Part shown: one piece after another, positions 11,501 through 35,382 of the stretch
How the letters are laid out: the number at the start of each line of letters is the position of its first letter
How positions within the stretch are numbered: the first letter of the stretch is position 1
DNA from: Basidiobolus ranarum
Taxonomy: Eukaryota
NCBI GenBank assembly: GCA_040143965.1
Contig: JASJQH010006940.1
Coordinates: 1 to 35,382, forward strand
DNA length: 35,382 nucleotides
Direction: 5' to 3'
The notes under the pieces: model-generated
Database searches by the model: none
Told to the model about the DNA's origin: nothing
The model's input: only the letters and a program-made list of their open reading frames with translations
Translations under genes and position numbers: made by a program

Positions 11501-14500
11501 GACCTTTATATGGTATAGGAGTCGATGAGCTTGACGAAGATCCTTATCTTGAACAGAAGCGAGTTGATTTAATTCATTCAGCAGCTCTTTTACTCGATCG
11601 GGCCAATCTCGTTAAATATGATAAGAAGACTGGTCGTTTCCAAGTTACCGAACTTGGTAGAATTGCCTCACATTACTATATCTCCCACACCTCGATGGCT
11701 ACTTACAATCAGCATTTGAGACCCATTATGTCACATATCGAACTCTTCCGAATTTTCTCACTTTCTGACGAATTCAAATACATTCCCGTTCGTGAAGAGG
11801 AGAAGCTGGAATTGTCCAAGTTATTGGAACGTGTTCCTGTTCCAGTTAAAGAGTCTATTGAGGAGCCCACCGCTAAGATCAATGTTCTTCTTCAATCGTA
11901 CATCTCTCAATTGAAGCTTGAAGGATTCGCACTTGTATCAGACATGGTTTATGTAACCCAAAGTGCAGGACGAATTCTTCGTGCTATCTTTGAAATCTGT
12001 TTGAAGCGCGGTTGGGCCCAGTTAGCTCGTAAGGCTCTTGATCTTTGTAAGATGGCCGAGAAAAGAATGTGGCTTTCCATGTCTCCATTGAAGCAATTCA
12101 AGCAAATCCCAGCAGATATTCTTAAGAGACTGGAGAAGAAAGAATTCCCTTGGGAACGTTACTTTGATCTTAATCCACAAGAAATCGGCGAGTTAGTTGG
12201 CATCCCCAAGGCCGGTAAAATGCTTCACAAATTCATCCATCAATTCCCCAAACTTGATCTTCAAGCTCATGTTCAACCAATTACTCGTTCTCTCCTTCGT
12301 ATTGAGTTGACCATTACGCCTGATTTCCAGTGGGATGAGAAGGTTCATGGAAATGCTGAATCATTCTGGATTATTGTTGAAGACGGGGACAGTGAGATGG
12401 TCTTGTATCACGATGTCTTCCTCTTAAAGCAACGATATGCCGAGGAAGAACATCTTATCACCTTTACTGTTCCATTATTTGAACCTATCCCACCCAATTA
12501 TTTTGTAACAGTCGTTTCTGATCGCTGGTTACACAGTGAAACCAAGCTCCCAGTTTCCTTCCGACATCTTTTACTCCCTGAAAGATACCCACCTCCAACT
12601 GAATTGCTTGATCTTCAGCCATTGCCTGTTACCGCTCTTAATAACCCGGAATTCGAATCTCTGTACAGCAGTTGGGTCGACAGATTCAATCCTATACAGA
12701 CACAGATATTCAATTCTCTCTATATGACTGATGATAACGTCTTCATTGGTGCTCCAACAGGTAGTGGGAAAACTATTTGTGCTGAGTTTGCTATTCTTCG
12801 CCTTTGGCAGAAGAGTCCTGGAGCTCGTTGTGTCTATATCGCTCCTTTCCAAGAAGTTGCGGACTTGAGACTAGCAGAATGGAGCCGAAAATTCGCCACA
12901 GTTCAAGGAGGCAAAAATGTTGTTGCTCTTACTGGTGAAACTAGTGCAGATCTAAAACTACTTGAACAAGGTGATGTTATTATTGCTACACCTGTACAAT
13001 GGGATGTCCTTTCTCGTCGTTGGAGACAAAGAAAGAATGTTCAGACTGTTGAACTTTTCATTGCCGATGAAATCCATCTTATTGGTGGTGAAATTGGCCC
13101 TACCTATGAAGTAATTGTTTCTAGAATGCGTTACATGTCTTCTCAAATTCAGGGTAAACTCAGGATCGTTGCTTTAAGTACATCATTATCAAATGCTCGT
13201 GACTTGGCTGAATGGATTGGAGCTACTCCTCATTCCACATTCAATTTCCCTCCTATGGCTAGACCTGTTCCTTTGGAGCTTCATATTCAAAGTTTCAACG
13301 TTCCTCACTTTGCTTCTTTGATGTTAGCTATGGCCAAACCAACTTATCTTGCCATTACCACACACTCTCCTGATAAGCCAGCGATCGTATTTGTTCCTTC
13401 TCGTAAGCAGTGCCGTTTAACCGCTGTAGATTTATTGACCTTCTGTAATGCTGAAGGTGAACCTGATCGCTTCCTTCGCTGTCAACCCGAAGATATTGCC
13501 GAGCATATCAATAAGATATCTGATAAGACTCTTGCCGAAACCGCTCAGCACGGTGTTGGTTTCTATCATGAAGCTCTTTCCAAGCAAGATAAACGCATTG
13601 TCGAGCATCTATTTGAATCCGGCGCCCTTCAAGTTGTTGTTGTCTCTAGAGACACATGCTGGGGTATAAACATCAGCACCCACATGGTTATAGTAATGGG
13701 CACTCAATACTTCGAAGGTAAAGACCATCGTTATGTTGACTACCCCATTACGGATGTTCTCCAAATGTTGGGTCGCGCATGTAGACCTAACAAGGATGAT
13801 ATTGGCCGTTGCGTTTTGATGTGTCAAGCGAATAAGAAAGAGTTTTACAAGAAATTCTTGTTTGAATCTCTTCCAATTGAGTCTCATTTGGACTTATTCC
13901 TTCATGATCATTTCAACGCTGAAATTGTCACCAAGACCATTGAGAATAAGCAAGATGCCGTTGATTATATTACTTGGACCTTTATATATAGACGTATGAC
14001 TCAAAATCCCAATTACTATAACCTCCAAGGTACAACCCATCGCCACCTTTCAGATCATCTCTCAGAATTGGTGGAGAACACTTTGAATGATTTGGTCGCC
14101 TCCAAGTGCATCACTGTTGAAGATGAGATGGATATCTTCCCATTGAATTTGGGTATGATTGCCGCATACTACAACATCAACTACATTACAGTTGAGATGT
14201 TCAGCATGTCTCTTACAGCCAACACCAAGCTCCGCGGTCTCCTGGAGATTATCTCCTCTGCTGCAGAATTCGAATCTATCCCCATTCGTCACCACGAGGA
14301 TGGCATTCTTAAACGTATCTATGAACGTTTACCTGTAAAGCTTGCTTCCACCAAATTCAACTCTCCTCATGTCAAAGCCAATATTTTACTACAAGCACAC
14401 TTCTCACGTACTCAACTTCCCCCAGATCTTCAATCCGACCAAACGATTGTTGTTTCCAAGATCATCCCCTTACTTCAAGCTTGTGTTGATGTGATATCCT

Positions 14501-15156
14501 CCAATGGCTGGCTTACACCAGCACTTGCCGCTATGGAGCTTGCTCAAATGACAGTACAAGCCCAATGGGATCGCGACTCGCCTCTTAAGCAGGTTCCTTA
14601 CTTCTCAAGCCAGCTCATCAAGCAATGTCAAGATAAGGGCGTTGACTCGGTATTCGAAATCATGGAACTCGATGACTCGGATCGTGATCAAATATTCAAG
14701 GGTTTGGAGCCCCGAGCAGTACGCGAGATTGCCCGTTTCGTCAACAGATACCCCAACATTGAACTTAACTTTGAGGTACAAGATTCGGCCGAATTGACTA
14801 CGGACTCATCTGTGGTCATGCAGATTTCGCTAGAACGTGAAGGAGATGAAGAAGATGAAGAGCCCGTTGGACCAGTAATTGCACCATTCTTCCCCACAAA
14901 GAAGGATGAAGGCTGGTGGTTAGTGGTAGGAGATCCAGTGGCCAAGACAGTGGCGGCCATCAAGCGAATCACTGTTCAACGCCGTCTTGGTGTGAAGCTA
15001 GAGTTCCCAGCACCCTCTGAAGCGGGAGAATTCAAATACAAACTTTACTTAATGTGTGATTCGTACATTGGTTGTGATCAAGAATACGATTTTGAAATGA
15101 AAGTAGCTCAAGGAGAAGATGAATCCTCCGAGGGAGGAAGTGATATGGAAGAGTAG
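8532..15156 (+). CDS. BRR2: U5 snRNP 200-kDa Ski2-like RNA helicase; exons 8532-8791 and 8871-15156
   Basis: N-terminal [16 protein letters not shown] and [11 protein letters not shown]-like IDAFWLQR; two helicase cassettes ([20 protein letters not shown] and [12 protein letters not shown]), each followed by a Sec63 unit; C-terminal DSYIGCDQE. Single phase-2 intron 8792-8870. Confidence 0.98.
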
Positions 15157-15756: not shown

Positions 15757-16901
15757 ATGTCTAGAGTACTTTGTTTCGGTTCAGTTAACATCGATAGTTT
15801 CTACGTTGTTCCACATATCGTTCGCTCGGGAGAAACCCTCTCTTCTACTCGGTATTTCCTTCGTGCAGGTGGTAAAGGAGCTAACCAATGTGCAGCTTTA
15901 GCTAAGGTCGGTTAGCAGTTCTTTGGAAAAAAAACAATGTTGACCTCCCTCTCATACTTGTTTCTTTAATATTTAGGCTGGAAATAAAACCTTTATGTCA
16001 GGTGTCATCGGTAAAGACGGGCTCTGGATCAAAGAAAAATTGGAAAAATTCGGTGCTAATGTTGACTTACTAGAAGTTTCAGAAGAGGAGGTATATATCA
16101 TATACTATGTCATAAAACTTTTTACTCCTTTAGCTAAAAAAAACCCCACTTTCTTTTGACTAGTCAACCGGAAAAGCTATTATTCAACTGAGTGAACACG
16201 ATCGTGATAACTCTATCATCTTGTTCCCAGGTACCAACTATAAAATAAGCAAAGAACTTATCGATAAAGTAGTTGGTCAATTCAATGAAAACGACTGGTG
16301 TTTATTACAAAATGAAATCAACCTTGGTGGAGAGGTTATGAGATCTGCCAAACGTCAAGGTAAATATGAACGTTCTCTTTACAAGAAGTTCGTATGGATT
16401 AATGAATAATTTCATATGATTGATTTAGGCATGAAAATCATCTTCAACCCAGCTCCATTCAACTCGGAAATTATGTCAGAATTTCCATTAGAGTTGGTGG
16501 ATATCTTGGTCGTCAATGAAACTGAAGCCATGGGTCTTTATGAAGGAATTACTGGAGAAAAAATGGCCGCAGATACTTTGGATGTTCAGAAACTCTCTAA
16601 AACTGTGACCGAGAAATACCCCGAATTAGAATGTCTTATTATTACCTTGGGCGCAGATGGTGTATTTGGTGCTTCCAATGGAGAGGAAATCACTTTGCCT
16701 TCTATGAAGTGTGATGTCGTCGATACTACTGGTGCCGGTGACACTTTTATCGCTTATTTCTTATCAGAATACATCCGATCAAACAAAGACTTTAAAAACT
16801 CTTTGGAACTCGGAATTAAGGCTGCCTCTATCGCTATTAGTAAAGAAGGAGCAATGGACAGTGTGCCTACCAAAGAAGAATTGGATGAGAAATTTGCTTG
16901 A
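15757..16901 (+). CDS. RBK1: Ribokinase (PfkB family); exons 15757-15906, 15977-16090, 16164-16359, 16429-16901
   Basis: MSRVLCFGSVNID...GETL...GGKGANQ; TGKAIIQ; LLQNE; FNPAP; VNETEA; TLGADG; DTTGAGDTF PfkB signature. Confidence 0.92.
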
Positions 16902-17370: not shown

Positions 17371-19513
17371 TTAACGACGTGGAATACCACGTCCGCGACC
17401 TGGCATACCGCCTTGGGGTCCTTGAGGGGCGGGTTGACTCTGTGGGTTCTTCACAGTTTCATCAACAGATAAAATCAAACAAGCAGCCTCGGTAGCAGCA
17501 GAGATAGCATTGGTCTTAACAAGTGATGGTTCCCAAACGAAAGCCTCGTAGTTATCAGCGATGGTCTCGTTATTTATGTCCACACCGAACCAGATGCCAC
17601 CTTGAGCATGCTTTTGACGAAGCTTAGTTAAGATCTCAGTAGAGTCAAAACCAGCATTATCGCATAATTGACGTGGGATCACTTCCAAGGCTTTAGCGAA
17701 GGCAGAGATAATCAATTGTTGTTTACCTTGAATAGTTCTAGCATGAAGACGAAGATATTTGGAAAGTTCCATTTCTGTGGCACCGCCACCGGCAACAACG
17801 TGGTTATTTCTGATGGCTCTTCTGACAATCATAATAGCATCATTCAAACTTCTCTCTACTTCAGCAATGAATTGCTCCGCACCACCACGAAGGATCAAAG
17901 TGCAAGTCTTGGCAGCTGGGCATCCAGTGAAAATGTTGAATCTTTCACCACCAATCTGCTTCTCTTCGAAAACCTCACAGGTACCCAAGTATTTCTCGGA
18001 GATATCTGTGCATGTAGATTGAACGGATCCACCAACTGCTTGAACAACACGGCTAAGATCATCAGCGGCAACACGACCAGCACAGAAGATATCTCTATCA
18101 GCAAAGTATTGTGTGGCAAGATCACCGATGGGAAGCTTAGAGAGGACTACCTTAGCACCAGTCTTGGCAATAGCCTCAAGTTTTTGGTAAATGATGGACC
18201 ATTCGGCATCAACAATTGCTTGGTATTCATCAACAGCCTCAACACGAACTTCGGCATTATCCTTCTCAGCCTTGAGTTCCAATTCAACGTTTAAGCAAAG
18301 AATCTTAGGTTGCTTGAAGTGTTTGGGTTGTTGTTCGAAACCGGCATAGGAGAATGTCTTCTTGAATGCAACACCATCAACAAAGATGGAGTCTTGCATA
18401 GCACCACCTGGGACCTTCTTGATACCAATGAGGTTGGGGTTGAGGTCTTCTTGATCCAAGTGAAGAACGGAATCGACTACCATCTTGGTGAAGAAATCCT
18501 TGTGTGAATGGATAAGCTTGGATGACATGGCGGTAGCAGCGCATTTCTCGAGAAGGGATCTGAACTCTCTAATAACAACAACAATATATGCATCAGAAGT
18601 CAGGTCTTGAATAAAGTGCTAACTTATAACGAATGTTAAAAGAATTCACTTACTCTTCGTTATCTCTATTAATAGTGACAGCCATTTCCTTAACCTTGTT
18701 AATAGCCTAAAATAGGATACAACCATGTAAGTTTGTTATGCCCTAAACATAGCTCATTAAATTCATATTCAGCTTACAAGTTGGGCGGCCTTTCTGAATC
18801 CTTTGATAATAACATGAGAACTAACGCCCTCTTCGATGTAAGACTTGACTTCTTTCAAGAATTCACCGGCGAGAAGAACTACACTAGTAGTACCATCACC
18901 AACCTAAACGAACCCTCGTGGTTAATATCTTACTGAAAGAAGGTTGCTTGAAATATAAAATACTCGGCCTTACCTCAGCATCTTGTGATCTGGCAATATC
19001 AACCAAAGTTTTGGCAGCGGGTTGAACGATATCCAATAACTTCATAATGGTAGCACCATCGTTAGAGATTGTGACGTCGCCTAGGAGCGGGGTAAAACAT
19101 GAATAGGTTGCCTAAGGTTGACCAGCTTCTTGATGATAGACTTACCTCTTTGGTTGACCATCAACTTATCCATACCACGAGGGCCAAGAGTGGTGCGAAC
19201 AGTATCGCATACAGCAAGACAAGCGTTGATGTTGGATAGAAGCTGACCTTTACCTTGGGAAGAGTCGGTACCTTCTTTGAGAAGGATGATTTGAGGTTGC
19301 TATAATATATAAAGTCAGTATACTGGATAGGATGGATTGAGGTTCAAATAACTTGATCAAGTGTTTACAAAGGGATACAATGTGGATAAAAAAGGTCGGA
19401 CAGCTTAACAGAAGGGAACCAAAGGTATTTCAATGGAAAGGTAACTTGGTAATGGTATTTGTGAACTTGGCTAAAACTACTTGGGGTTAGAGACATACCA
19501 TCATGTTCGACAT
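17371..19513 (-). CDS. CCT7: T-complex protein 1 subunit eta (chaperonin CCT/TRiC); 6 exons
   Basis: [82 protein letters not shown]-type loop, and the C-terminal GRGRG tail characteristic of the eta subunit. Confidence 0.97.
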
Positions 19514-20265: not shown

Positions 20266-21912
20266 TTAGGTCAAGAACACCTTCTTGAGTTCGGAGAATT
20301 CAAAGGTATCGTTGGTGCGTGGACATTTGATCTTCCCTTGATTCTTGGCTGCCGCTTCTTTGAGTGCCTGTTGGATGTGGAATATGAATTCAATTGGCTA
20401 GGAGATCTTTAGAGATGGTGCAACTACTTACATTAAAAGAGTAAACATATCCGTTCGGAAGGGCCATGGGGGGATTGTTTTCGTTCATGATGTCACCAGA
20501 TATCCTGCACACAATGGTTGAATTTACATGATGAGATAGAGGCAGCTTTTCTGCCAATACACCCAGAGTTTCTGGTGCACACACTGGGCAATTGATGTTG
20601 CGGTTTTCTGGTTGATAGCACATTGGTGTTTTCAAAGCAGATAGACCGGTTTGTAAAGTGACCGAGAGCAAAGGCTCCGAAGTTAAGCTGTGGAGACTAA
20701 AGTTGTCGTTGCGGAATTGGTCCATCAAATGTTCCCATCTGTTCTCATCAAAAAGTTTCTAAGCAATAGACATTAAAAATTAGATTGAGCTGAAACATTG
20801 ACGAATTAGGGATTTCTAATTTACTTTGTAAGGCTGACATTTAGTGTCGGGTTTGAAGGCCAAAAGTGCCATGGCTTGTTGGATTTCCTTGATATTAACG
20901 TCGGTCCATTGAATCAAGTATTTACGTGCATATGTGATGGCATCACTAGTTCTTCGCGTTCTGACCAATTCGATAAACTCTTGTAGTCTTAAATTGAACT
21001 CGAGCGTACTCTTATTCGTCAAATGAATTGATGTAAACATCTTGCTGAGAATAGAGTTCTTGGCTTGAAATACAAATTACCTTCATCTTTCGTAAGCTTG
21101 TTTTGTTCTCGCTACACCAATGCAAGCATTCAGTGCAGCTGTGCTTTTGTAAAGCTTCTTCGATCTTCTTGGATTGAATAAATAACTCTGTATCAACAAG
21201 TTCCTTTTGTAATACAAGTCGATATTAATATTAACGATAAATAACCCCATAAACTATTGAGATAAAAGAACCTCAATGTTGGCATCTTTCGCTAGTGCTT
21301 TGGCAGTCTCGCTGTAACCTGAGCGCAGCATAAAGTCAACTAGTACACGATCGAGTCTTATTCTGCTCCAACGCGTGTAAGCCTCATCATTGTAAGAGAG
21401 AACCTGATTGAGCTCTGAAAGATGTTGTAAGCGGGTTTTACTCCTTTGTGTAAAAAGGAACTCCTCTTGCTTGGCATCTTGAAGCTAAAGGATAAATTGG
21501 ATCATGAAGGTTAATTATTGTGACGATTAGTATAGAAAAGTGTAATTGTTGTCAAGAAACTCATCGTTCTGAGTTGTATACAAGCCAATAAAAAAGTGAA
21601 AGGTACCTTTTTCTTCAATGTTTTCAACCGCTGAATAGAGCTATCAATGACTTTAACAGCTTCCTCTGCATCGATCTTATTCTGATTTGCAGATTTCAAT
21701 AAGTCACTGATAGCGTGAGTAAGTACAGTAGTTTCTTTCTCTATATGCTTTTGAGAAATTCGAAAAGCCTTCTTCAACTGTTCGTATGGTACCTAAGTAA
21801 AACCCAATAGAATTACCATTAGGATTGATGGTTTGTAATAATGGCAAAAAAAGAGTACTTTTATAAATGGTTGCTCTACAGTGAGCAAAGCTTCATGGTT
21901 AATCTTGTTCAT
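20266..21912 (-). CDS. MAEA: GID/CTLH E3 ligase subunit (Fyv10/Gid9/MAEA); 7 exons
   Basis: MNKINHEALLTVEQPFIK|VPYEQLKKAFRISQKHIEKE; LisH-like RLDRVLVDFMLRSGY; CTLH STLEFNLRLQEFIELVR; LQTGLSALKTPMC...CPVC...LPLSHHVNS..CRISG..MNENNPPMALPNGYVY; CPRT...KKVFLT*. Confidence 0.94.
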
Positions 21913-22376
21913 TAAAGAAACTACTATTCAGATACTCGTAGCGTTAATAATAAGGTGGAAATAACTACGTATTCAGTTGGGAATATTGCTTCTCTGGCAC
22001 AAATTGAATCAACGATCCCTTAGCCACACCAGTGACTATGTATCAAGTAAATTCACATGATCAGGATTTGCTTAAAATTCTATGTACCTCGATTACGTCT
22101 AAAGTTGGCATGAATAAAATAATACATATTTCATTGGCTAATCTGACTATTTATTTCACAAGTGATGCATAAAGTTTGGTTATCATTTGATTAAAATGTT
22201 GAGTAACTAAACATTATTTATCTCAAATTAAGACGTTGAGTTAAAAACATAGTAAATATCTGTTTGTATATGCTTCGATCAAGGATAAACAAAGTCCTTG
22301 TATGTATGTATATCGAAACCAGTGATTGTTAGTGTGTTTGAGTTCGCTTATCATTTTTCTCTTTAACAAAATAAGA

Positions 22377-25300
22377 ATGGTGTCTGATGTCGAGAAGACC
22401 TTCAACCTACTTGGTCAAAAAAGACTGCCAGAATCCGTATGTTTTCTTTCATGGTGCCCAACAATGGATTTGATTGCGCTTATTACCTATACTAGTGAGA
22501 TTTCTCTATGGCGTTTATCCTGGCAGAAAGTTTGGTCTATACCACATACAGGAGGGAATAAACCAACTGCACTGACTTGGCGTCCGGATGGTAACCTTTT
22601 CTTCTTTTTATTTGTGAATTCCTTTTGGATAAAAATATTCATGAGAGTCTATGCATATCAGGAAAAGTTTTGGCTGTTGGTTACTCTAATAGTGAAGTGA
22701 TACTATACGATGTGAGTTCAGCTCAGATCGCTCACAAAATCCAACTCTTCAACTCAGAAAATTCAAAGAATCCCATTTCTTTTCTGTATTGGGCTGAGGA
22801 AGCAGGAAATTCTCAAGTCAATCAGGTAAGTGAGCATTTTATGTCGAGCATAGGCATTGTATTAAACTCCTTTTATTCGATAGCGTTCGTCTAAAAATCA
22901 TTCCCATAGTGTAAAGCATTTACCGTTGTTAAGCACTATTCCGCATAATCGATCAAGGTAATTCTTTCAATTGAACGCAGAAATTTGATCAATAGTAATA
23001 ACCTCTTTCTTCAACGTTAGTATATTTGCCACTAAACCAAAGGATACTGCATTAGATGTGTTTGATGAATCTGAACAGGATAACGATACCATGAATTTAT
23101 TAATAGCAGCAGATGATTTCGGAAATATTTACACTAGGTATTAGCTGATGATCTGCATGGTTCTTCTAAATTTCTACTAACTAAACTGGGATGATTTAGT
23201 GTGTATGGTGTATTTGACCTTGGGTTCAAAACTGTCCAGAAACATGACGTGACCAAGCATAAGGTACTTTCGCCTGGTTTCTCTATTGATCGCTTGCTCT
23301 TTCCTCACATTATTGCTAGAAATTTCGTGTAATCGATGGTTGTGCTTCTCATGATCTCTCCATGTTTACCTTGCTTTGTTCAAGTTTATCCAATCCTAAC
23401 GAAGAAGAGACCAAAATGGGAGCCACGTTTTCCATCTCTTTCGATACTGGGCTCTTACACTCAAGAAAGGCGGAAATTCGCTCATTATCATCAATTTCCA
23501 CCAAAGTGAATTTCTTGCTTAATTATATTCAGCAAAGTATTAAGGGGATGGAGGAGGAGTATCTTGGAGTCACCAATCTATCGAAAAAATACTTGGAGCG
23601 TTTGGAACAAATAATGATAGATCAAGGAGGTTGGTCATATTCTCATGGTAATCAAAGAATGAGATACTGAGTTTCTTTACGTTATAGTGGACTCCAACCC
23701 AGTCACCGAGTTTGCTAATATGCTAGCAAGAGGATCTCCCAGCGTTTGTCTAAATCAATTTATGCAGCAAGATCTCACGGAAAAGGTAACTCTATTTAGA
23801 CTCACGTTTCTTCTCGGAAGATACTTTTTCTAACTAGTTCATGTTGAAATTAGGGATTGAGAAAATGGGAGAAAACTACTGAAAATGGATTTGTTGGGAT
23901 TCGAAATTTCGCTCACGAATACGTTCAACCTGCTTGTATACGATTGATTTTATATTTGGACGAAATAGCTGGACTGAGTAGATGGTATTGAATCCTTCCA
24001 TTGACGAATCAGTAATATCGTTGCCATCATCGTTGTTGACATCTATTTTTAAAGGGAAGAGCGATACCAAAGTATTGGTCTTGACGAAGAAACTGTACAT
24101 TCATGTGTTATGTTGATTGGAAGTTTTATCGGTAGATTGGAGGAATTGCTGTTAACTATCGATGCAGAGCTAAAGAAATTCCAGAATTTCACTAAATGGT
24201 TGCAAAATGGTACATTTTCACGTTACCATCTGAAAAAGATGACCCATTTACTTAAAAAGAAAGCGTCTATTATTTAGTATTACAGAAGATCATGCCAACT
24301 GAAGAACCCATTCCAATCCGATATCTACCTGTGGATATCTTGAAGGTGGCCGAGTTTTTGCAGACCTCGTTAACTCAGGATTGTTTGGCGGGATTCTTTT
24401 CGAAAATGAAGAAGAGCGATATGAATTGGTATTTGATGGAACTAGAGAAGCGTAGCAATATGAAGAAATCTGGAAGTTGCCTTTACCCGCATAATTTCAC
24501 CTTTCCCAAGGAGATATTGAATGATTGCGATATACCCTTTGTTAGTATTCGTGACTTCTTCCAAGAGCTAGATGGTCGCTGCAAACAGCTTCTGGATGTC
24601 CCCGCCAAATTGATAGGAAATACTTTCCAACAGATTCAATCCACTTCCTTAAAATCCAGATCCATAGATTGCTGCTCCATTACAGAGTTTGGCAAACAGG
24701 AGCAAAACTCTCATCTACTGATGTCCACCAGAGCAATCCATAAGGTAAGATTTCAGGGGAACGGTATGATTGATTCTAGAATATTCATTGATTCTAATCG
24801 ATATCGTGTTATACAGGAGAAGGAGACATACGAATATGTTGCGCTTCATTCATTGCCGAATGATGAAGATGCCGAATCAATTGGTAGGTGATGTTCGAGA
24901 AAATCTTTGGAATGCATCTAATCTTTGGAATGCATCTAATGTTTGGAATACATCTAATCTTTATTTCTCCTAGTTTGGATAATACGTACCAAATATTCGA
25001 TTCAGTCATACGAACTGACACAGCTGAGAGAAGTGGTTGGATTATGTTTAGAAGAGCCAGGAGTTTCACTGGTGGATATGGAATTTTTCGATGATCAGTC
25101 TCTGGCTGTACTGATGCAGAAACGAGAAGAAGATGGTAATTATCACCTTTAGTGTACATTTATTTAACGGGTAGACATCCATGGTTGGGTTAGACTTGGT
25201 TTACACCGGACAGATGGATCCATTTCACTCAACATATTGAATTCGATTTAGAAACATCATCATGCTACTTGGGACTTGTGGAGTTCCGAGAATTGGAATT

Positions 25301-25611: not shown

Positions 25612-25947
25612 TGGTTCGTACGGGAAGTAAACAAAGTTGCCGATGATGAAGTCACCCCTTACGCCCACGCCCTCACTCACCCATGTTCACATCAATTGTC
25701 CTCATATGATTGTATATAACGGGAGTATAACAAGTATATATACGATATTCACAATGCATCCATTTCAATGTAAATCATAACATCTTATATACATGTACCG
25801 ATGTAATAGACATATTCGTAATTTTAGAAATATAAAGGGAAAAAGCATTCATCAATTAAGAAATTACCAGAAAGAGGAAGATAAATTACATTATAATACG
25901 ACTGCTACTGCTACTGCCACTGCCATGAATATTGCTTACTCGTACAG

Positions 25948-27052
25948 TTATGACAAACTCATTTGACTAAAGGATGTACTGGTACGTTGAATGTTAATCA
26001 ACGAATTCGATCTAACTTGAACTCTAGCTGCTGCATTGGTTGGTGAAATTGCTCGTCTTTTCAGACTGGAATAAGGTTCGAATCTTTCCTCTACTGTTAT
26101 GAACAATTAATAAGATGAAGTCGAGTGAAGAATTGGCTTATGTATAACCCTTACGTTTACGTTTTGTACGTAACCCAGCTGGACTTCTATGTCCTGAGTT
26201 CAATAGATTGTTACTTGAACACGATGTAGAGGAAGATGTGGGAGAAGGTGAGGATGTGATTTCACTATAATAACACTAAGAATTCATGTTAGAGATAACA
26301 TGTTATCCATAAGAATCATCGATATCTTTCATTTACATCGTTTTCTGGATTCAGTCGGGAAGGAAGATAAGTTGGACTCGAAGGTGGATTAAATGTGGTT
26401 GACTCCCAAAATCGCTTCAATAAAGCATAGTCAGTATTTTCATATGGAATATTTCGTTGGCTAGTTTATATATGTATATATACCCCTGAAGTGTCGGTTT
26501 TCTTCTCTATATCTGTATCCGTTTCCATTACTTCTAAAGACGTATCAGACTCGTTCTTTAACAAATGAGTCACTTCATGTTCGTGAGCCATTTCTCTTTC
26601 CGAAGGATAAAATTCTTCCTAAAGAATGAAAATAACCGTAACACAATAAATATCTTCAATAATTCACCAAGATTTAGAACTCTTCGCAAGATAAGATACT
26701 CACTTCTAACACGGAAAACACTCTATTTAGATTTTTCATCTTTGGCTAAAGTATCAATAAAAATCCACTTAATATGATAAATTCAAAAGTGTTTAGGAAG
26801 TGGACTTCTCAAAATCTGTTTCTATACCACTATTGCATTCTTTCTTACAGGAGGATTTCCGGAAGTTATCTTCGTCTCTTTTTCTTGATATAAACTTGGT
26901 AATAAAGAGAACCCGTCTTCTAAACTCTTGATTCTGGAAAGTCTACGTAAGGTATGTCTTGGTGAAGTGTTAGAAGCATTCTTAACGATTGATAAAGTTT
27001 CTTCACTTGAGTTCTCTTCAACCATATTCTCTTTGGGTGTTATGTAAGACAT
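25948..27052 (-). CDS. Uncharacterised ~248-aa S/P-rich protein, possible FAM122/PABIR-like; exons 27052-26828, 26745-26704, 26618-26484, 26414-26337, 26275-26155, 26093-25948
   Basis: Five GT-AG introns join six exons (747 nt) into one open frame: ...RKNAIV|PKMKNLNRVFSVLE|EEFYPSEREMAHEHEVTHLLK...|RFWES...|...SPSPTSS...TKRK|LEERFEPYSSLKRRAISP...FSQMSLS*. Confidence 0.75.
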
Positions 27053-27834
27053 TATTAGCTAGGCAAAGAAACGTCTACAACGGAAACTCAATTAGAGTCA
27101 AATAGATAAGTAAAGAATGGTGAGTTGAATCCAGAAAAAGGGACCAAAATAAGTACTAGATGCTATGGTTATGGTCATGGTTATGGTCATGGTCCTACAT
27201 TCTATCAATATGGCATTTGATATTCCAATAGTTTATACAAGTGAATATGAATAATCATGGAGAATATACTGCACATATCACCCAACCTGCCACACGCCAC
27301 CCACAACCTATTTCAAACAGACCAGCCAATTCCTTAACAAAATATCTTGAATGTCAAACTCCACACGAATCATTCAAACTTGGCGTGTTTCAATTGTATC
27401 GCAAATTAAAGCCTAGGTAGATGCAGTTAGGTTTTATGCCATCCCCAAACATTCATTGTAAGGATGCAGCTAACACTAATGAATATGACTAATGAATATG
27501 CACTCACAACCAATGAAGTTCCAGTTTGGTCCACATTGTTGGAGTGAATTAGGATGAGCGGTAAGAACGGTGGCTTATCTAGATCCAGTGTTTGAACTTA
27601 CAAATGATCGCAAGTGGATTTTATTCCTTTCTTTACATTCACATATATAATGGGTATAATATATATATATACAGGTATATATATATAAAATCGAACTGAT
27701 AAAAAAATAGAAACTCTTGAGTGAGCAGGAGTCCAAAATAACGAATTAGAGATCGGGTAAGAAAATTGTATGGTGCATTGGGGTTGGTGTAGTTGTTCAT
27801 CCCACTCGTACCCACACCACTGGCACCGAGGTGT

Positions 27835-29404
27835 TCAGTCTGTTTTAACTAGTGTTCTCAATCGATCGACTAAGGGTGGGTGAGAGTAATGGTATGTAGA
27901 ATACCAGGAATCCAAGATCAAGTTGGAGCTATCTTGTTTATTCAATCGGACTAACCCGGTTCTCAATGGCTCACCATATCCGTGACGCTTGGAAAACTCA
28001 TCTTCATATACATGGTTAGAAAAATTCATGCAAGACTAGATAACTGACTCAGTACCTGCTTGAAACTCTTGCTTTCGACGCAACGCATTTGTCAAGAATG
28101 TTGCTAAGCCCTCAAATGGGGAAAAGATATACTGAAAAAGCATGAACCCAACCAGCACGGGTTTAGACTCAAATCCGAAAGCGCGATATAAGTTCGAATT
28201 GTTGATGAAATGGCTAAAGACATAGAAGATTCCGAATAGATGGATTTGATGGATGATAAAAAGCTTCGTAACGTGATTGTATTTCCAGTGACCGAGCTCA
28301 TGACCTGCTCACAGAAAAGTTAAGCCATGTAATGGGTGTTATTCACTAATCAATTACTTACACAATATGGCACACACTTCCTCCTTGGTCGTCTCTTGCA
28401 GTGCACTCTCGAAGATCGCAATGTGCTTGTTGGGAGAGAAGCCAAAAAAGTAACTGTATCCATGATGTGCCTTTCCACCCGGCTCGGAAGGTACAACATA
28501 GATTTTACTTAACGGGAATCCAATTCGTCGTGCCAGATTCTCTATATTCCCCTTAAGCTCTTCGTCTTGTAGCGGTTTAAATTCATGAAACAATGGTTGA
28601 ATCAAGGTAGGATACAGGCTGACCATCAGAAATTGAAAGAGCCCACTATCATTGTATGCAAAAGTAAGTTACAGTCTTCCCGCAGATATCAAGCATTCTT
28701 CACTACATACGCAAACATCCAAACATAGAAATAGAATCGGTCGCCACTCCACTGAATAATATACAGGAATGTAGCGATAAGCGGCACCCCCACTGCCCCG
28801 CCAAACAGATAGCCTTTGATCCCACTTATGAAGAAAGAAGCCACGGTCAAGGTCCTAGACCCGTGTCGGGCCTCTATAACAAATGTATTGTACAGGCTAA
28901 ATGGCAAAGCGGTGATGGAGCTAATGCTTGATATTAAAATGAAAAATATGACACTCTGAGCGATCTGTATACGAAGTACTTGTGAGAAACCAACCAGTCA
29001 TGCAATTGCAATTAGACAAGCATACCTCACTTCCGCTTGAATAACCAGCTAGTGTCAGCCATCGACCAGCCAAGTTCCAAAGCCAGGCTAGCAGATTAAA
29101 GTATATTACCGCCGTATTTTGAAGTTGAGAAAGAGCATCCCCCAAAAATAGGAATTTACTTTTATCTATTCCGTAGGCATTAATACGATTGAACTCTTCC
29201 GAAGTGATTAGTTTTGTTAATATTTTTGGTTGCTCTTCGTATTGGAGTTTCCGAAGTTGACGGTAACTATATGGAGACACACAAGTTAGAGATGACTTGG
29301 GGGAAGAGCAGGGATGAAATATGATAGCATTACTTGAGATAAGTAATAAAAATATAGGAGGCGTATGAGAGACCAAGGACGTATTCTTTGTACAAAGATT
29401 CCAT
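27835..29404 (-). CDS. Ste24/ZMPSTE24-like CAAX prenyl protease (peptidase M48), divergent; 6 coding exons
   Basis: MESLYKEYVLGLSYASYIFITYLN|YRQ; LPFSLYNTFVIE; IQPLF..F.PL; spliced EEVCAIL-C|HELGHW (HEXXH); EFQA|D; WYSTYHYSHPPLVDRL. Confidence 0.9.
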
Positions 29405-30324
29405 GTAAACCGAAGCCCAGTAACTTTATACCAAAGGGAGCAAGAGGAAAGCAAAAGGCAAAGCGGTACAATCCTTGCTGAAATTAGTCAAAATTATGCT
29501 ACGAAATTACCAACGTTATCCAACCTACCAGTAGAGCTTTTCTAAGTATGCTGGAAGAAGCAAGGGAATGTTTGTAGTCTTTTGTGACTGACAACAATAA
29601 ACCAGACTACTAATTGAATGAGTCACGTCTAATTTGAAGTACCTAAGCATTGATCATTTTCATCGATTAACCGGGGATAGAAATCAGGAGTATTCGAGAA
29701 CCTCCAAAACTTCAGGAACGTGATACTAACCCTAACCCTAAAAATGATTGTAACTATATGGAATGTATGATTAAAGTTACTTTGATTTAGAGAACATTTC
29801 ATTCACCAAACATTCCATAATATTCCATTCACTACCATACTGTTCAGCTCGCGTCAATGCAGTAATCTCACCAGAGAAAATTCTCTATTTGTCAATGATT
29901 GATTTTAATCCCCGTGATTTGAGCCTGCAAGAGATCTTGATTTTCATGTAACCTAGTAACCTTCAAACCTGAATAGAGACAGAAGTAGGCTGATGATGGC
30001 ATAATGACAAGGAATCCATTAATGACCTGATGTAACACAAATAGGGAACAAAATAACACCCAAAACCTTGGAAATTCGTTTGTTTAATGCACGTATTTAA
30101 ATGGTAATGAACACTAACCACTGGAATAAATGTGACTGATTTATTGGTTTAGATTAAAAGAGGCTTCTCTTTCCGCCACCAGACCATGGAATGCAGAAAA
30201 GGGATTTTGAAAAGTATAATATGGCTGTAATATGGCTGTACTGTTACATTAGGTAAATATCGAAGAGATGTTTCAATAATAAAAATGAAGGGTGTGTTCG
30301 TGATATACATGGTTCAGAAGGAAT

Positions 30325-33300
30325 TTAATGGTGCTGCTGCTCATACTCCTTCAGGTAGACTAACAAGCGTTTCTTGTGAATCATACCTACATACTGCCCG
30401 TGAGATACAACGCATACGTAGCGAACTCCAAGTTTAGAGAAGAGTTCCAGTACCAACTCCATGGAAGAGTTTTCGGAAATAGTTAGTGGAGCCTAAAATA
30501 ATTTCTCAGTTAAATCGACATACACTCATTATGTGACTTCATTGAACTTACCTGGTCCATGTACGCAGTGAGATCATTCAGATGATTCTCAACTTCATCG
30601 AAAGTTTGATTAAAATAACAACGAATGTTGGTGTCCTCTGGCTTGATTTTATCTAGGGCATGCTCAAGTTCGTTACAAGCTATGTAACCAATCAAAAGTT
30701 GCCCATCGAGAACAGGCAAACCACCATCGGGGTAGCCACGGTTGATCATTTTAGTTAATTTTTTACGAAGGTCGCTAGCAGTGTTAGGCTCATTGACATC
30801 AATCACCTGGAGATCATGTTCAGTGATGTCACTGGTTTGCCCAAGACGAATGTACTCGGTCTTGGAATCGAGGTATGGATGACCATTGACTTCAATTAGC
30901 TTGTCATAAATACTTCCTGGGGCTATAGCATCTCCTGTCCATTTGGCTACGAGAATAGATATCATCAATGGCTGTAAGAAAACATCAAAATGTCAGCTCA
31001 TATCTGCGCAAATCACACCGAGTTAACTCTTACCAAGACATAGGTGAGGGTCCCAGTAAGTTCAAACATGATAACAATCAGAGATACGGTCATACGAGTG
31101 ACACCACCCAGACCTGCTGCTGCACCAACGATTGCATAGACTCCAGGATTAATACAAGTGGTGGAATCGACGCAAGAATTGAAGATTGGGAGCGTAGGGT
31201 AAACTCTGATGAAAGAGGTTGGATCAATGAACAAGTGTATCGTGCAGGCAATGATGCGAAAACTACTCACAATTGGAGGTATTGAACGCCAAGTCCAACG
31301 ATACGACCGAAAGAAGCTCCTACTACCATGGATGGAATGAAGATGCCACATGGAACCTGGAAAAGTGCAGATGATTAATGTGACTTGTGTGTGTAGACGA
31401 GTCAATATTCAGTACATACTCTGCATCCAAAGGTGAAGATGGTCAGCACAATCTTGATGAGCAAAGTGTACAGAAGCATTGTTACAACCGGACCGAATTG
31501 CTCAGGTTCGTTGACACAGAGTCCTTCCAAGTCACCATGATGCTCGTCTTGACATTCTTTGAACAAACTTGTAACCAGTTCCCCGGAGCCCATTCTGAAA
31601 TATAAAAGTAGGTTAGAACAATCTGTATAGAAAGGCCTGGAAGAAAATTGTACCTAGTGTAGATGTTCCAATAACTAACGATCGATGTGACCATAACCAA
31701 AGTAAGGACTTCATGAATGGGGTAGTTTTTGAGCTTTGTAGCACGGATCTTTGCCCACCATATATTACATTTTATAAACAATGCTCCGAAAAGTCCCTGA
31801 AAAGGTACCGTGAGATATAGAAATGAGTGGTAGAGCAGGATAAGAAAGACTTACCCCAAAAGTGCCAATGATAAAGAAACAGAAAATTTCGAAGAAATGC
31901 CATTCATGGTCATAGGTAACCTGGAACATTACAATTTTCCCGGTTCTGAATGGATTGATCAACTTGAATGTGTGTCAGTATATGTCGAGTCTGGATGTAG
32001 GTGATCTGAACATACCTTCAAGGTCATTGCGGCTGTAAAGGCACAGAAGAAACTACGAATCATGGTCTTGTTGGGAAAGTAGTAACTGACTTCCTCCAAA
32101 CTAAAAAGGACACCACCGATGGGAGCACCAAAGGCAACAGCAACACCGGCAGCCGAAGAAGCAGATAGGATCTCACGACGTTTACCTTTTAGAGATTCGA
32201 ATTAACATTTTGCGAAAAAGAATAAAACACTATAGCCATCTACCTTCATTCTTGTTGTATTTGTCGAATATACGACTACACACATTACCGATACAGCATG
32301 CGATATGAACCAGGGGTCCTTCCTTACCAGTACTCAATCCTGAGGCAACTGAAAGAGTCTAGATATCATTCATCATTAGTATCGGTTAGAGGATTTATGA
32401 GGATTCTTACTCAAACTTACCAGTCCAACAGTTTTGACGCACAAAGTGCGAAGACCTAAATAGCCACGCATGACGAACCCACTGAGAATTGTCTTTACTT
32501 CAGGTACACCACTGCCTGCTGCGTAATATCTACGAACAGGAGGGGCGTTCTTAGAGTTCTTGGAGGAAATTATAGGCTTTGAATTGAAGAAAATCAACAA
32601 AGCAGAAGAGCCAGCAAACAGAACCTGAGAAGAGTCAACTTTAGTGCATGCATCGGATCGTCATGAAGCAAATTGACTTACAGCAAACAACAAGTATATG
32701 ATGAAGTTGAACCAATAGCTTAAAGTTTCATCTTGAATGTCAGTGATAGAGGACCACTCTTTCCATTCGGGACAATGTTCCTCCTCTATTGAAGTAGGTA
32801 AGTATCTGCATATTACAAATCAATATCCATTAAACAATCACCTGAATCCCAACAGCAAAATGTTTGAGTGTACGAGAAATTTGAGGAACAGAAACCACGT
32901 TTGATATCTGAGAGCCAAAACTCAACACTGGCAATACTGGCAGCAACACAACCACAAACGACACCTTTGAGAAAAGTATGAATTCATCTGACTACGATCA
33001 AGTGGTAAACAACCAAAATAAAAAATTGCCATACCTATAAGCCCCACAAGTATCCAAGCCTTTGCACTGTCCCATGAATTAACAAACCACCCTCTGGCTC
33101 CTTTGATGGAGCGAATTTGACGCAAGCGAACACGTTCTTTGACCGAGTCGTGAATCCAATCTATAGTTATCGATTGATATTGATTTTAGCTCAATAAGGT
33201 CCCCTTTAAACTCATTCAGAATACAGAACTTACCAATAGTTGTATAGTTATCATACCAAACACGAATACCGTTATTTTCCCCCATTAAAGCTTCGTTATC

Positions 33301-34098: not shown

Positions 34099-34691
34099 AT
34101 TCTACCAAATCCCGAATTGAAAAGGTAAGAACCCCTGACTACTGCATGTTTCGCTCTGTGAGAAACAGAAACAACGTCGAAACAACGACAGATTTGTAAT
34201 CACGTTCACGCAAGCAGTACCCAGACTAGAACATGGCACAAAGTCGAGGGTTTGTATCCAGATCATGTAACCAACCATCAGGCATAGAATATTCGTGAAT
34301 ATATTACAATCCTTTAATTACCCCTGCTTCTGTTTCAATCAGTCTCATGTAAAAGAAACACAAGTTCTTCTACCAAAACTGACACCTGCTCCCACCTATT
34401 CTCCTATTGCAACCTCAATGGTAATCTTGAGTTACTCTGGAGAGAGAGTATTGATGGATAGTATCCGTGGTAGATCGTTATATGCCCACATATCTACTAC
34501 TTCTTTCGTGATTAGTGATACAAGTTGTGATTGTCGATCGTTATTCTTGCTACTCTCCATATCACGATCAGGATCACGATCATGATCCATATATGTCAAA
34601 ACATATTAGCCGTCCGTGAAAACAACATTAGGAGCTCTTCTCTGTATTTTTAACTCTCTGTTGTTCTTGTATTAGTATTCTCATTTTCAAT

Positions 34692-35382
34692 ATGACAAGC
34701 GAGTCAGTTGACAACTTCAAAAGTCCTGATGAAAGAAATTTAGACTCACCGACAACGAAATCTACAACTTCTCCAGAAAGTAAAACTCTAAATTCGTACT
34801 TTCAAGAGGTTTGGCTAGGTGATCAAATCTCGCTTGCCGATGTTTTCAGTTTGGCATTTACTGGACATTTATCTTCGTACACATTAGTAGCAATCCACAC
34901 CAAAAGTAACGAATGGAGTAAACGTCTTGATGATACATATACCAATTTATTGAAAAGAACCAAATTAGATAAAGAGTCTCGTGAACGCTTTCTAAAAAAG
35001 ATAAAACTTGTGGAAAAACGAGAGAAGATGACGCGGAAGTGGCAAGAGCAAAATGTGGTTAGACTAAAAGATAAAATCGCTTTTGTTGTGGGTGTAAGCA
35101 ATATATTTGCTGCTGCTTATCTACTTGGAAGAGCACCCGCCTGGATACCAGAATGGTATACGTTTTGGGCTGTCACTTTAGTATCAGTCCGATTTCTGAT
35201 TTACAAGTCGAAATCATGGCATTACTTTGTGTTCGATCTGTGCTATTTTGTTAATTTATTGGTTGCTCTTTATCTCTGGGCCTTCCCAACGAATAAATCC
35301 ATCTTTAGTGCGGCCTTATTATTGACCAATGGGCCACTAATATGTGCAGGTGTGACTTGGCGCAACTCGATTGTGTTCCATT
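34692..35382 (+). CDS. GPC1: Glycerophosphocholine acyltransferase (DUF2838 family), 5' part, truncated by the window end
   Basis: Open frame from ATG 34692 to the window end: ...VRLKDKIAFVVGVSNI...WYT...RFLIYKSKSWHYFVFDLCYFVN...LTNGPL..AGVTWRNSIVFH, motifs of the GPC1/DUF2838 family. It is absent from the ORF track because there is no stop in the window. Confidence 0.88.
   Translation, partial: MTSESVDNFKSPDERNLDSPTTKSTTSPESKTLNSYFQEVWLGDQISLADVFSLAFTGHLSSYTLVAIHTKSNEWSKRLDDTYTNLLKRTKLDKESRERFLKKIKLVEKREKMTRKWQEQNVVRLKDKIAFVVGVSNIFAAAYLLGRAPAWIPEWYTFWAVTLVSVRFLIYKSKSWHYFVFDLCYFVNLLVALYLWAFPTNKSIFSAALLLTNGPLICAGVTWRNSIVFH

What the first reader, a model, noticed from the sequence alone, without database searches (positions are those of the whole stretch)
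25948..27052. Hidden 6-exon gene that may be a fungal FAM122/PABIR-type PP2A-B55 regulator
Seen: only exon 1 is in the ORF track, but five canonical introns splice into a 248-aa disordered, SP-rich protein with a helical-looking core NRVFSVLEEEFYPSEREMAHEHEV. Knowledge (recalled from memory, unverified): human FAM122A, a PP2A-B55 inhibitor, has the core SRLHQIKQEEGMDLINRETVHEREV, then SP/PSPT repeats and KRK..E..Y..KR. The fungal core aligns with one gap (R-[LV]-x-x-[IV]-x-x-EE...RE-x-x-HE-x-EV), and SPSPT and KRKLEERFEPYSSLKRR follow in the same order. Exon 1 carries a second RLxxIK-like motif (SPRHTLRRLSRIK) resembling the described B55-docking SLiM. The protein also resembles, from memory, a fungal hypothetical family with LLPK/KRRAVSP motifs. 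Inference: it could link that family to PP2A(Cdc55) control of mitosis.
Basis: partly seen in the sequence, partly recalled or inferred. Interest (0 to 1): 0.75.

Follow-up and report, generated by a model that had tools for sequence, protein, structure and literature searches.

The report
Candidate fungal PP2A-B55 inhibitor gene
A correctly spliced six-exon gene of the fungus Basidiobolus ranarum encodes a mostly disordered protein from a large, unnamed fungal family whose only structured piece resembles the two-helix clamp that animal FAM122A uses to switch off the cell-cycle phosphatase PP2A-B55, although standard sequence searches do not confirm kinship.

Summary
Six exons on the minus strand (27052..25948), joined over five GT..AG introns, give a 248-aa protein. 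It is letter for letter the deposited 'hypothetical protein K7432_002425 [Basidiobolus ranarum]'. So the gene is real and already annotated, but unnamed.

It belongs to a large fungal family with no Pfam match: 903 proteins at E<=10, and the best 120 all score E<=2.9e-17. Named members are Zoopagomycota, Mucoromycota, Glomeromycota and Ascomycota.

The family shares a core, R-phi-xxx-L-x-E-E-xx-P-x-[DE]-x-E-xxx-E. AlphaFold2 folds it as helix 78-92, turn, helix 96-115, in an otherwise disordered chain.

The FAM122A/PABIR reading is partly supported.
- For: the near-invariant fungal residues R83, E90/E91, E98 and E102 fall on human R84, E91/E92, E100 and E104, which contact B55 and the PP2Ac active site.
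- For: a language-model search puts PABIR_N clusters first for two members that are 28% identical.
- Against: eight HMMER searches found no FAM122A or PABIR match.
- Against: the human K89, I88 and R105 positions and the exon-1 'second motif' are not conserved.
- Open: no complex could be modelled, because no B55 sequence was at hand.

The parts
25948..27052 (-). Whole coding region, start codon to stop codon, of the 248-aa protein (= K7432_002425, Basidiobolus ranarum)
   Evidence: Splicing by coordinates reproduces database protein P0001 exactly
26828..27052 (-). Exon 1, aa 1-75. Disordered N-terminus with RRLS (36-39) and the first part of the basic R-K-x-x-phi-phi-P-K block (70-77)
   Evidence: The block aligns with the family's RRxxLLPK
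26746..26827 (-). Intron 1 (82 nt, GTATAG..TTTAG). A second in-frame donor lies at 26848
   Evidence: The annotated donor is preferred because it keeps the conserved block
26704..26745 (-). Exon 2, aa 76-89. Most of helix 1, with invariant R83 and L88
26619..26703 (-). Intron 2 (85 nt), which splits helix 1 between aa 89 and 90
   Evidence: P0003 and P0005 carry inserts at this very point
26484..26618 (-). Exon 3, aa 90-134. Holds E90 and E91 at the end of helix 1, the turn with P94, helix 2 (aa 96-115, 26600..26541) with E98, E102 and E104, then an acidic tail
26415..26483 (-). Intron 3 (69 nt, GTATAT..TTGAAG)
26337..26414 (-). Exon 4, aa 135-160. Holds the conserved Ser147-Pro148 and LNPE (155-158)
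   Evidence: P148 is at least 90% conserved in the 69-sequence alignment A4
26276..26336 (-). Intron 4 (61 nt)
26155..26275 (-). Exon 5, aa 161-201. Holds SPSPT (169-173) and KRK (198-200)
   Evidence: K198 and R199 are invariant in the 15-sequence alignment A3
26094..26154 (-). Intron 5 (61 nt, phase 1)
25948..26093 (-). Exon 6, aa 201-248 plus the stop. Holds RFEPY (204-208; with KRK a candidate basic PY-type nuclear import signal), KRRAISP (212-218) and the conserved C-terminal hydrophobic tail
   Evidence: Pfam HnRNP_M_NLS gives weak hits in 11 of 69 members, best E 0.1, below the cut-off

Best explanation
The gene encodes an intrinsically disordered, probably nuclear phosphoprotein. I propose that it is a stoichiometric inhibitor or regulator of the PP2A-B55 (Cdc55/Pab1-type) holoenzyme and works like animal FAM122A/PABIR.

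Proposed mechanism. All of this is inferred; none of it is shown.
- A basic lead-in (R70-K79) runs into helix 1 (aa 78-92), which docks on the B55 platform. R83 would make the salt bridge made by human R84. V84 and L88 would fill the hydrophobic pockets. E90 and E91 would enter the basic pocket.
- The turn at P94 redirects the chain.
- Helix 2 (aa 96-115) lies over the PP2Ac active site, with E98 and E102 facing the substrate-coordinating arginines.
- KRK...RFEPY imports the protein into the nucleus.
- The Ser/Thr-Pro sites, notably the conserved S147-P148, allow control by CDK-type kinases.

Shown here: the gene model, membership of a large fungal family, the two predicted helices, and the residue-by-residue conservation.
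For: (1) Structure. AlphaFold2 predicts only two ordered elements, helices 78-92 and 96-115, with block-mean pLDDT 82-91 over residues 81-110. Human FAM122A binds through residues 81-111 as two helices joined by a sharp turn.

(2) Conserved columns. Counts are out of 129 aligned family domains.
- R83: 127.
- I or V at 84: 127.
- L88: 128.
- E90: 122.
- E91: 126.
- P94: 125.
- E or D at 98: 128.
- E102: 128.
- E104: 103.
With one gap in the turn, these fall on human R84, L85, E91, E92, E100, E104 and E106. The Nature paper names R84, E91, E92, E100 and E104 as contacts.

(3) Chance. The a-priori strict pattern occurs in 0 of 20000 shuffles of P0001, and nowhere else in the six-frame translation of the window.

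(4) ESM Atlas. The best three hits for P0001 are PABIR_N clusters (0.89/189, 0.88/186, 0.83/157). An Ascomycota cluster of unnamed proteins, possibly its fungal kin (not checked), scores only 0.81. For P0013, 28% identical to P0001, the two best named clusters are again PABIR_N (0.79 and 0.77, 166 features each).

(5) Same order of parts as described for the human protein: basic region, two helices, a conserved Ser-Pro between helices and NLS, then a basic NLS. KRK is at 198-200, against the human NLS at 201.
Against: - No sequence or profile search links the family to FAM122A/PABIR. Pfam gave 0 relevant hits at E<=10 for P0001 and five of its exon translations, for 12 relatives, and for 69 members. 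I could not establish that the local Pfam copy holds PF27638.
- PDB searches with P0001, with the 59-aa core, and with profiles of 13, 15 and 69 sequences never listed a FAM122A chain at E<=10.
- Unrelated helical proteins reach 10-14 bits with the core, so the pairwise similarity is at noise level.
- Human K89, called highly conserved, aligns with invariant L88.
- Human I88 aligns with Ala in 99 of 129.
- Human R105, whose cancer variant weakens inhibition 11-fold, aligns with Ala in 88 of 129.
- The Atlas scores are below 0.9, which the tool calls leads only. P0013's recognition value is low.
- Binding to B55 or PP2Ac was not modelled or measured.
Confidence: 0.55

Rival explanations
1. The similarity to FAM122A is coincidental. 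The protein is a nuclear disordered phosphoprotein whose amphipathic, acidic helix-turn-helix binds some other partner, for example a chromatin, transcription or transport factor. It has nothing to do with PP2A.
For: - Eight HMMER searches gave no FAM122A/PABIR match.
- The core scores as well against Dsl1, a glycosyltransferase and Smc as it could against FAM122A.
- The strict human-like pattern holds in only 2 of 128 members.
- The looser pattern also occurs once elsewhere in the window (11749-11811) and in 35 of 20000 shuffles.
- Glu-rich amphipathic helices are common.
- The Atlas warns that a third of shuffled proteins get a first hit of 0.8 or more, and ten of ten agreeing families.
Against:
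- 189 shared features exceeds the tool's 170 mark. Nine in ten true family members reach that mark, against one to two in ten chance hits.
- The best-conserved fungal columns are the ones that correspond to the human contact residues.
Confidence: 0.3
2. The protein does bind B55 through helix 1, but as a substrate or recruiter rather than an inhibitor. It acquired the helical motif independently of the animal family, so it is convergent and not homologous.
For: - Many unrelated proteins bind the same B55 pocket through single helices or helix-loop-helix elements, including yeast Zds1.
- The hydrophobic pair in the fungal helix is spaced i/i+4 (84 and 88), as in ARPP19 L49/L53, rather than i/i+3 as in FAM122A L85/I88.
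- The R105 equivalent, needed for full inhibition, is not conserved.
- The protein has seven [ST]P sites that could be B55 substrates.
Against: - Helix 2, with its conserved acidic residues at 98 and 102, has the E-xxx-E spacing of the human inhibition helix E100/E104. A mere docking motif would not need this.
- The Atlas points to PABIR_N specifically, not to other B55 binders.
Confidence: 0.15

Closest known systems
FAM122A / PABIR1 family (Pfam PABIR_N, PF27638), animal PP2A-B55 inhibitors
   Same: - Similar size. The best Atlas PABIR_N clusters are 253 and 241 aa, against 248 aa here.
- Largely disordered, with two short helices at almost the same residue numbers: 78-92 and 96-115 here, within residues 81-111 in human.
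- Conserved Arg at the start of helix 1 and Glu-Glu at its end, with identical R-to-EE spacing. An acidic E-xxx-E pair in helix 2.
- A conserved Ser-Pro between the helices and the NLS, and a basic NLS near residue 200.
- Highest-ranked family in the language-model search.
   Different: - No HMMER-detectable similarity.
- The turn is one residue shorter and holds a near-invariant Pro (125 of 129).
- K89 becomes Leu, I88 mostly Ala, and R105 mostly Ala.
- Features that the FAM122A texts I read do not mention: the RRxxLLPKTK lead-in, RFEPY...KRRAVSP, and a C-terminal hydrophobic tail.
- The literature I read describes the family as bilaterian.
ARPP19 / ENSA / Igo1,2 (endosulfine family)
   Same: Small disordered PP2A-B55 inhibitors that put one helix on the B55 platform, with an i/i+4 Leu pair, and a second helix at PP2Ac.
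   Different: Endosulfines need a Greatwall-phosphorylated Ser at the active site and a third B55 site. No Pfam family matched any of the 69 members above its cut-off. No comparable phospho-motif was seen.
Spo12 (proposed fungal PP2A-Pab1/Cdc55 inhibitor) and Zds1
   Same: Fungal disordered proteins reported or predicted to bind PP2A-B55 through short helices.
   Different: Spo12 is 90 aa, is defined by a SPO12 domain, and depends on CDK phosphorylation. Zds1 uses its own helix-loop-helix. No Pfam match to either family was listed for the present family. That those models are in the local library is my recollection and was not checked.

Membership tests
FAM122A/PABIR | Significant sequence or profile match to the family (Pfam PABIR_N, or the FAM122A chain in solved PP2A:B55 structures) | tested here: not met
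   - Pfam hmmscan at E<=10: 0 families for P0001 and five of its exon translations.
- No PABIR hit for 12 relatives or for 69 members.
- PDB: phmmer with P0001 and with the 59-aa core, and hmmsearch with profiles A1, A2 and A4. No FAM122A chain was listed.
- Caveats: I could not confirm that PF27638 is in the local Pfam copy. No profile-profile (HHpred) test was possible, because no animal PABIR sequence could be obtained.
FAM122A/PABIR | B55-binding helix: Arg (R84), a hydrophobic residue next to it (L85), and Glu-Glu (E91, E92) seven and eight residues later | tested here: met
   Counts out of 129: R83 127; I/V84 127; E90 122 plus 5 D; E91 126. The spacing is identical to that given.
FAM122A/PABIR | Second hydrophobic residue at +4 (I88) and a conserved Lys at +5 (K89) | tested here: not met
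   Position 87 is Ala in 99 of 129 (Val in P0001). Position 88 is Leu in 128 of 129. The hydrophobic pair is therefore i/i+4, as in ARPP19.
FAM122A/PABIR | Inhibition helix with two acidic residues four apart (E100, E104) that reach the PP2Ac arginines | tested here: met
   Position 98 is E 111 plus D 17 of 129. E102 is 128 of 129. Helix 96-115 is predicted. Reaching it from helix 1 needs one gap in the turn.
FAM122A/PABIR | R105 and V107, which stabilise the inhibition helix (variants weaken inhibition 11- and 6-fold) | tested here: inconclusive
   The R105 equivalent (position 103) is Ala 88, Tyr 14, Ser 14 and His 7 of 129, so it is not conserved. The V107 equivalent (position 105) is Thr 75, Val 25, Ile 24 and Leu 4 of 129, so it is beta-branched or aliphatic in 128.
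FAM122A/PABIR | Two short helices joined by a sharp turn in an otherwise disordered protein | tested here: met
   AlphaFold2: helices 78-92 and 96-115 only, mean pLDDT 52.9, 133 of 248 residues below 50.
FAM122A/PABIR | Second, C-terminal binding region around a conserved Ser-Pro (human S158), and an NLS near residue 201 | tested here: inconclusive
   S147-P148 is present, with P148 at least 90% conserved in A4. KRK is at 198-200, with K198 and R199 invariant in A3. The order matches, but no residue-level alignment with the human region could be made.
FAM122A/PABIR | Physical binding to, and inhibition of, PP2A-B55 | not testable with these tools
   No B55 or PP2Ac sequence was in the window or in any search result. 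The complex-prediction job was therefore not sent.
Fungal LLPK/KRRAVSP family (unnamed) | Core R-phi-xxx-L-x-[ED]E-xx-P preceded by RRxxLLPK, followed by KRK...F[ED] and KR[RQ]A[IV]SP | tested here: met
   - P0001 hits relatives at E from 1e-59 to 7e-4.
- The core profile retrieves 903 proteins at E<=10.
- Out of 128 fetched members: core pattern 121, lead-in 124, KR[RQ]A[IV]SP 112.
- The core precedes KRRAVSP in 107 of the 107 that have both.
PY-type nuclear localisation signal (transportin/Kap104 class) | Basic patch followed by R-x(2-5)-P-Y | tested here: inconclusive
   KRK 198-200 and R204-F-E-P-Y208 fit the pattern. The pattern itself is recalled. Pfam HnRNP_M_NLS gives weak hits in 11 of 69 members, best E 0.1, below the cut-off.

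The most novel reading that the evidence does not exclude
The unnamed fungal RRxxLLPK...KRRAVSP family is the true fungal branch of the FAM122A/PABIR family. It has at least 903 database clusters and runs from Basidiobolus through Mucoromycota and Glomeromycota to Pezizomycotina and Taphrinomycotina. If so, this PP2A-B55 inhibitor dates back to the common ancestor of fungi and animals rather than to bilaterians. Filamentous fungi would then carry a phosphorylation-independent B55 brake alongside Igo/endosulfine, Zds1 and Spo12.
Probability: 0.4. Interest if true: 0.75.

Novelty: new variant of a known kind. Interest (0 to 1): 0.6.

Why it matters
PP2A-B55 sets the timing of mitotic entry and exit. 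FAM122A is the inhibitor that acts before Greatwall-ENSA, and in the papers I read it is treated as an animal, bilaterian invention. Fungal work lists only Igo1, Zds1 and now Spo12 as B55 regulators.

If this family works as proposed, several things follow.
- Hundreds of 'hypothetical' fungal proteins would gain a function.
- Genetically tractable moulds that carry a member, such as Aspergillus, would offer a way to study FAM122A-type control.
- The two-helix clamp would be shown to be far older than thought.
- The conserved differences (Leu for K89, the Pro turn, the basic lead-in) would show which contacts are dispensable.

My five usable literature searches found no paper that links FAM122/PABIR to a fungal protein. 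A sixth, for the string KRRAVSP, found no paper at all. That library misses most subscription journals, and bioRxiv supplements are closed.

Tried and rejected
1. Another exon-1 donor (GTAAGA at 26848, giving 241 aa). Rejected because it deletes residues that align with the conserved RRxxLLPK block.

2. The exon-1 'second RLxxIK SLiM' (aa 36-42). Rejected as a family feature: the Basidiobolus relatives P0002 and P0005 have R-R-S-R-T-K there, without the Leu or the Ile. It looks more like a basophilic kinase site (RRLS).

3. A B56-type [LFM]-xx-[ILV]-x-E motif (F85..L88..E90 in P0001). Rejected because position 85 is Arg or Lys in 102 of 129 members. By eye, no PP1 RVxF motif is present.

4. 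Foldseek of the AlphaFold2 model against the PDB. One match at E = 4.2 and none at E<=0.001, so uninformative for a two-helix model.

5. Fetching an animal PABIR sequence for a profile-profile comparison. None of the three word-indexed searches listed one, nor did the exhaustive phmmer search (13 hits, all fungal-looking). Only the best 120 of the 903 hits are visible, so weak animal hits in the tail cannot be excluded.

7. Complex prediction was not sent, for lack of B55 and PP2Ac sequences.

8. Literature search was badly posed: PABIR was not made compulsory, so it says nothing.

The genome-contig collection holds only bacteria and archaea and was not used.
Full report
**What is there.** The minus strand between 27052 and 25948 carries a six-exon gene. 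The exons are 27052-26828, 26745-26704, 26618-26484, 26414-26337, 26275-26155 and 26093-25948. They join over five GT..AG introns of 82, 85, 69, 61 and 61 nt into a 747-nt reading frame. The introns are AT-richer than the exons (GC 0.26-0.33 against 0.38). The unspliced frame stops at codon 77. The 248-aa product is identical to a deposited protein, 'hypothetical protein K7432_002425 [Basidiobolus ranarum]'. Its contig length (35382) equals the window. I first chose a stronger-looking donor 21 nt upstream, which gives 241 aa. The family alignment argues against it, because the seven residues it removes align with a conserved block. Relatives read straight through all five junctions. Two database relatives (P0003, P0005) carry inserts exactly at the exon 2/3 junction, the mark of an intron left in their models. 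No transcript data were available.

**The family.** An exhaustive phmmer search of 1.84 billion representatives found 13 proteins at E<=0.001, six of them at E<=1e-10. That profile retrieved 903 proteins at E<=10 among 7999 scored candidates. The best 120 all scored E<=2.9e-17.
- By my count about 57 of those 120 rows carry an organism name. By my own knowledge of the genera, all are fungi.
- Glomeromycota: Ambispora, Entrophospora, Rhizophagus, Gigaspora and Geosiphon.
- Mucoromycota: Umbelopsis.
- Many Pezizomycotina: truffles, Morchella, Aspergillus, Talaromyces, Coccidioides and black yeasts.
- adds Savitreella (Taphrinomycotina), a second B. ranarum copy (K7432_011911) and a B. meristosporus protein.
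- Every name is 'hypothetical', 'uncharacterized' or 'sequence orphan'.
- 118 of the 120 have no precomputed Pfam domain. The other two look like fusions with unrelated domains.
- No named Basidiomycota, Saccharomycotina or Schizosaccharomyces member was listed. With only 120 of 903 rows visible, that says little.

**Anatomy of the protein.** The fetched family members share these blocks, counted out of 128:
- a basic lead-in of the RRxxLLPK type: 124;
- the core R-phi-xxx-L-x-[ED]E-xx-P: 121;
- KRK followed by an acidic F[ED] element: 94;
- KR[RQ]A[IV]SP: 112;
- a short hydrophobic C-terminal tail: 100.

The core lies before KRRAVSP in all 107 proteins that have both. In P0001 these blocks sit at residues 70-77, 83-94, 198-208, 212-218 and 232-248. 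There are seven [ST]P sites and one RRxS site. AlphaFold2 with the 69-sequence alignment A4 predicts a disordered chain (mean pLDDT 52.9). The only secondary structure is helix 78-92 and helix 96-115, with block-mean pLDDT of 82-91 over residues 81-110. KRK...RFEPY fits a basic PY-type nuclear import signal; that pattern is recalled. Its only outside support is a weak Pfam hit to HnRNP_M_NLS in 11 of 69 members, best E 0.1, below the cut-off.

**Comparison with FAM122A, for.** I took the human facts from papers and not from memory. The Nature 2023 structure paper (passages read) states the following.
- Residues 81-111 bind as two helices joined by a sharp turn.
- In the B55 helix, R84 pairs with B55 D197, L85 and I88 fill hydrophobic pockets, K89 binds loop carbonyls, and E92 enters a basic pocket. 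R84, K89, E91 and E92 are highly conserved.
- In the inhibition helix (97-111), E100 and E104 reach the PP2Ac arginines. R105L and V107G weaken inhibition 11- and 6-fold.

Aligned by eye with one gap in the turn, P0001 R83, V84, V87, E90, E91, R97, E98, H101, E102, E104 and V105 match human R84, L85, I88, E91, E92, R99, E100, H103, E104, E106 and V107.

Across 129 aligned family domains, the conserved columns are the ones that correspond to the charged contact residues:
- R83: 127;
- E90: 122, plus 5 Asp;
- E91: 126;
- position 98: Glu 111 plus Asp 17;
- E102: 128.

The hydrophobic neighbour at 84 is Ile or Val in 127. A pattern written from the human functional residues occurs in 0 of 20000 shuffles of P0001 and nowhere else in the six-frame translation of the window.

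The ESM Atlas search knows nothing of the hypothesis. For P0001 it ranked three PABIR_N (PF27638) clusters first (0.89 with 189 of 256 shared features, 0.88/186 and 0.83/157). These sit above an unnamed, mostly Ascomycota cluster (0.81) that may be its fungal kin, which I did not check. For P0013, 28% identical to P0001, the two best named clusters were again PABIR_N (0.79 and 0.77, 166 features each). The order of parts also agrees with what is published for the human protein: a basic region, two helices, a conserved Ser-Pro (human S158; here S147-P148) and an NLS (human 201; here 198-200).

**Comparison with FAM122A, against.** Every HMMER-type test failed.
- Pfam listed nothing relevant at E<=10 for P0001 and five of its exon translations, for 12 relatives or for 69 members. 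I could not establish that the local Pfam copy (24736 models) contains PF27638, so this is weak evidence.
- The PDB sequence set should hold the FAM122A chain of the cryo-EM complex. It gave no such hit at E<=10 with P0001, with the 59-aa core, or with profiles of 13, 15 and 69 sequences.
- In one search unrelated helical proteins (Dsl1, a glycosyltransferase, Smc) reached 10-14 bits. Pairwise similarity to the human protein is therefore within noise.

The family also departs from the human pattern at positions the paper stresses.
- The K89 equivalent is an invariant Leu (128 of 129).
- The I88 equivalent is Ala in 99.
- The R105 equivalent is Ala in 88.
- The strict pattern fits only 2 of 128 members, while a looser one fits 124.
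His-Glu-x-Glu-[Val/Ile] occurs in five members only, among them the two Umbelopsis proteins P0010 and P0103.
- The exon-1 'second docking motif' is not conserved even in Basidiobolus relatives.
- Foldseek was uninformative.
- The Atlas scores are under 0.9, which the tool calls leads.

**What I conclude.** The most likely reading (0.55) is that this is a FAM122A-like stoichiometric regulator of PP2A-B55. Helix 1 would sit on the B55 platform, and helix 2 would lay its acidic face over the catalytic site. Import would run through KRK...RFEPY, and control through proline-directed phosphorylation. Only the gene model, the family, the helices and the conservation are shown; the binding is inferred. 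Whether the likeness reflects common descent (about 0.4) or convergence on a much-used B55 pocket cannot be settled here. Many unrelated proteins, including yeast Zds1, use helices on that pocket. The fungal i/i+4 hydrophobic spacing is closer to ARPP19 than to FAM122A. The main rival (0.3) is that the resemblance is accidental and the helices bind something else.

**Novelty.** Five usable literature searches found no paper that ties FAM122/PABIR to a fungal protein. A sixth, for the string KRRAVSP, found no paper.
- One paper (passages read) describes the family as arising in bilaterians.
- One search was badly posed and tells nothing.
- The library lacks most subscription journals, and bioRxiv supplements were closed.

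**What stayed open.** No animal PABIR sequence could be obtained, so no HHpred-type comparison was made. No B55 or PP2Ac sequence was available; neither is encoded in the window.

Noticed in passing
window 22326-23670 (+), 28036-29487 (-), 31013-32201 (-), 20390-21484 (-): Neighbouring genes are ordinary housekeeping genes split by short introns. Downstream lies an APC4-like gene (anaphase-promoting complex), tail to tail with this gene. Upstream lies a Ste24-type CAAX protease. Further off are a CLC chloride channel and a CTLH/LisH protein. No PP2A subunit is in the window.
   Followed up: partly
window 8845-15156 (+): A Brr2/SNRNP200-type spliceosomal helicase reads as one uninterrupted 2103-aa frame. 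This is striking in a genome where a 248-aa gene has five introns.
   Followed up: no
window 27165-27194 and 25901-25923: Hexamer microsatellites flank the gene: five copies of ATGGTC/ATGGTT about 110 nt upstream of the ATG, and 3.8 copies of ACTGCT about 25 nt after the stop.
   Followed up: no
database proteins P0002, P0003, P0005 (relatives; P0002 is from B. ranarum): Their deposited models look mis-spliced. P0003 and P0005 have inserts at the exon 2/3 junction. P0002 ends shortly after KRK in a tail unlike any relative, at the place where intron 5 begins in this gene.
   Followed up: partly
window 26164-26071 (-), aa 198-208: KRK followed by R-F-E-P-Y fits a basic PY-type nuclear import signal. 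This gives a testable prediction of transportin/Kap104-dependent import.
   Followed up: partly
window 11749-11811 (+): The loose R-phi...EE...E-xxx-E pattern also occurs once inside the Brr2 helicase frame. This shows how easily the loose form arises in Glu-rich helices.
   Followed up: no
window 1041-2057, 5077-5547, 6188-8101, 16410-16901, 17371-18618, 34632-35381: Other Pfam-recognisable genes: an HLH transcription factor, CwfJ, an UNC45/She4-like ARM protein, a PfkB kinase, a CCT chaperonin subunit and DUF2838.
   Followed up: no
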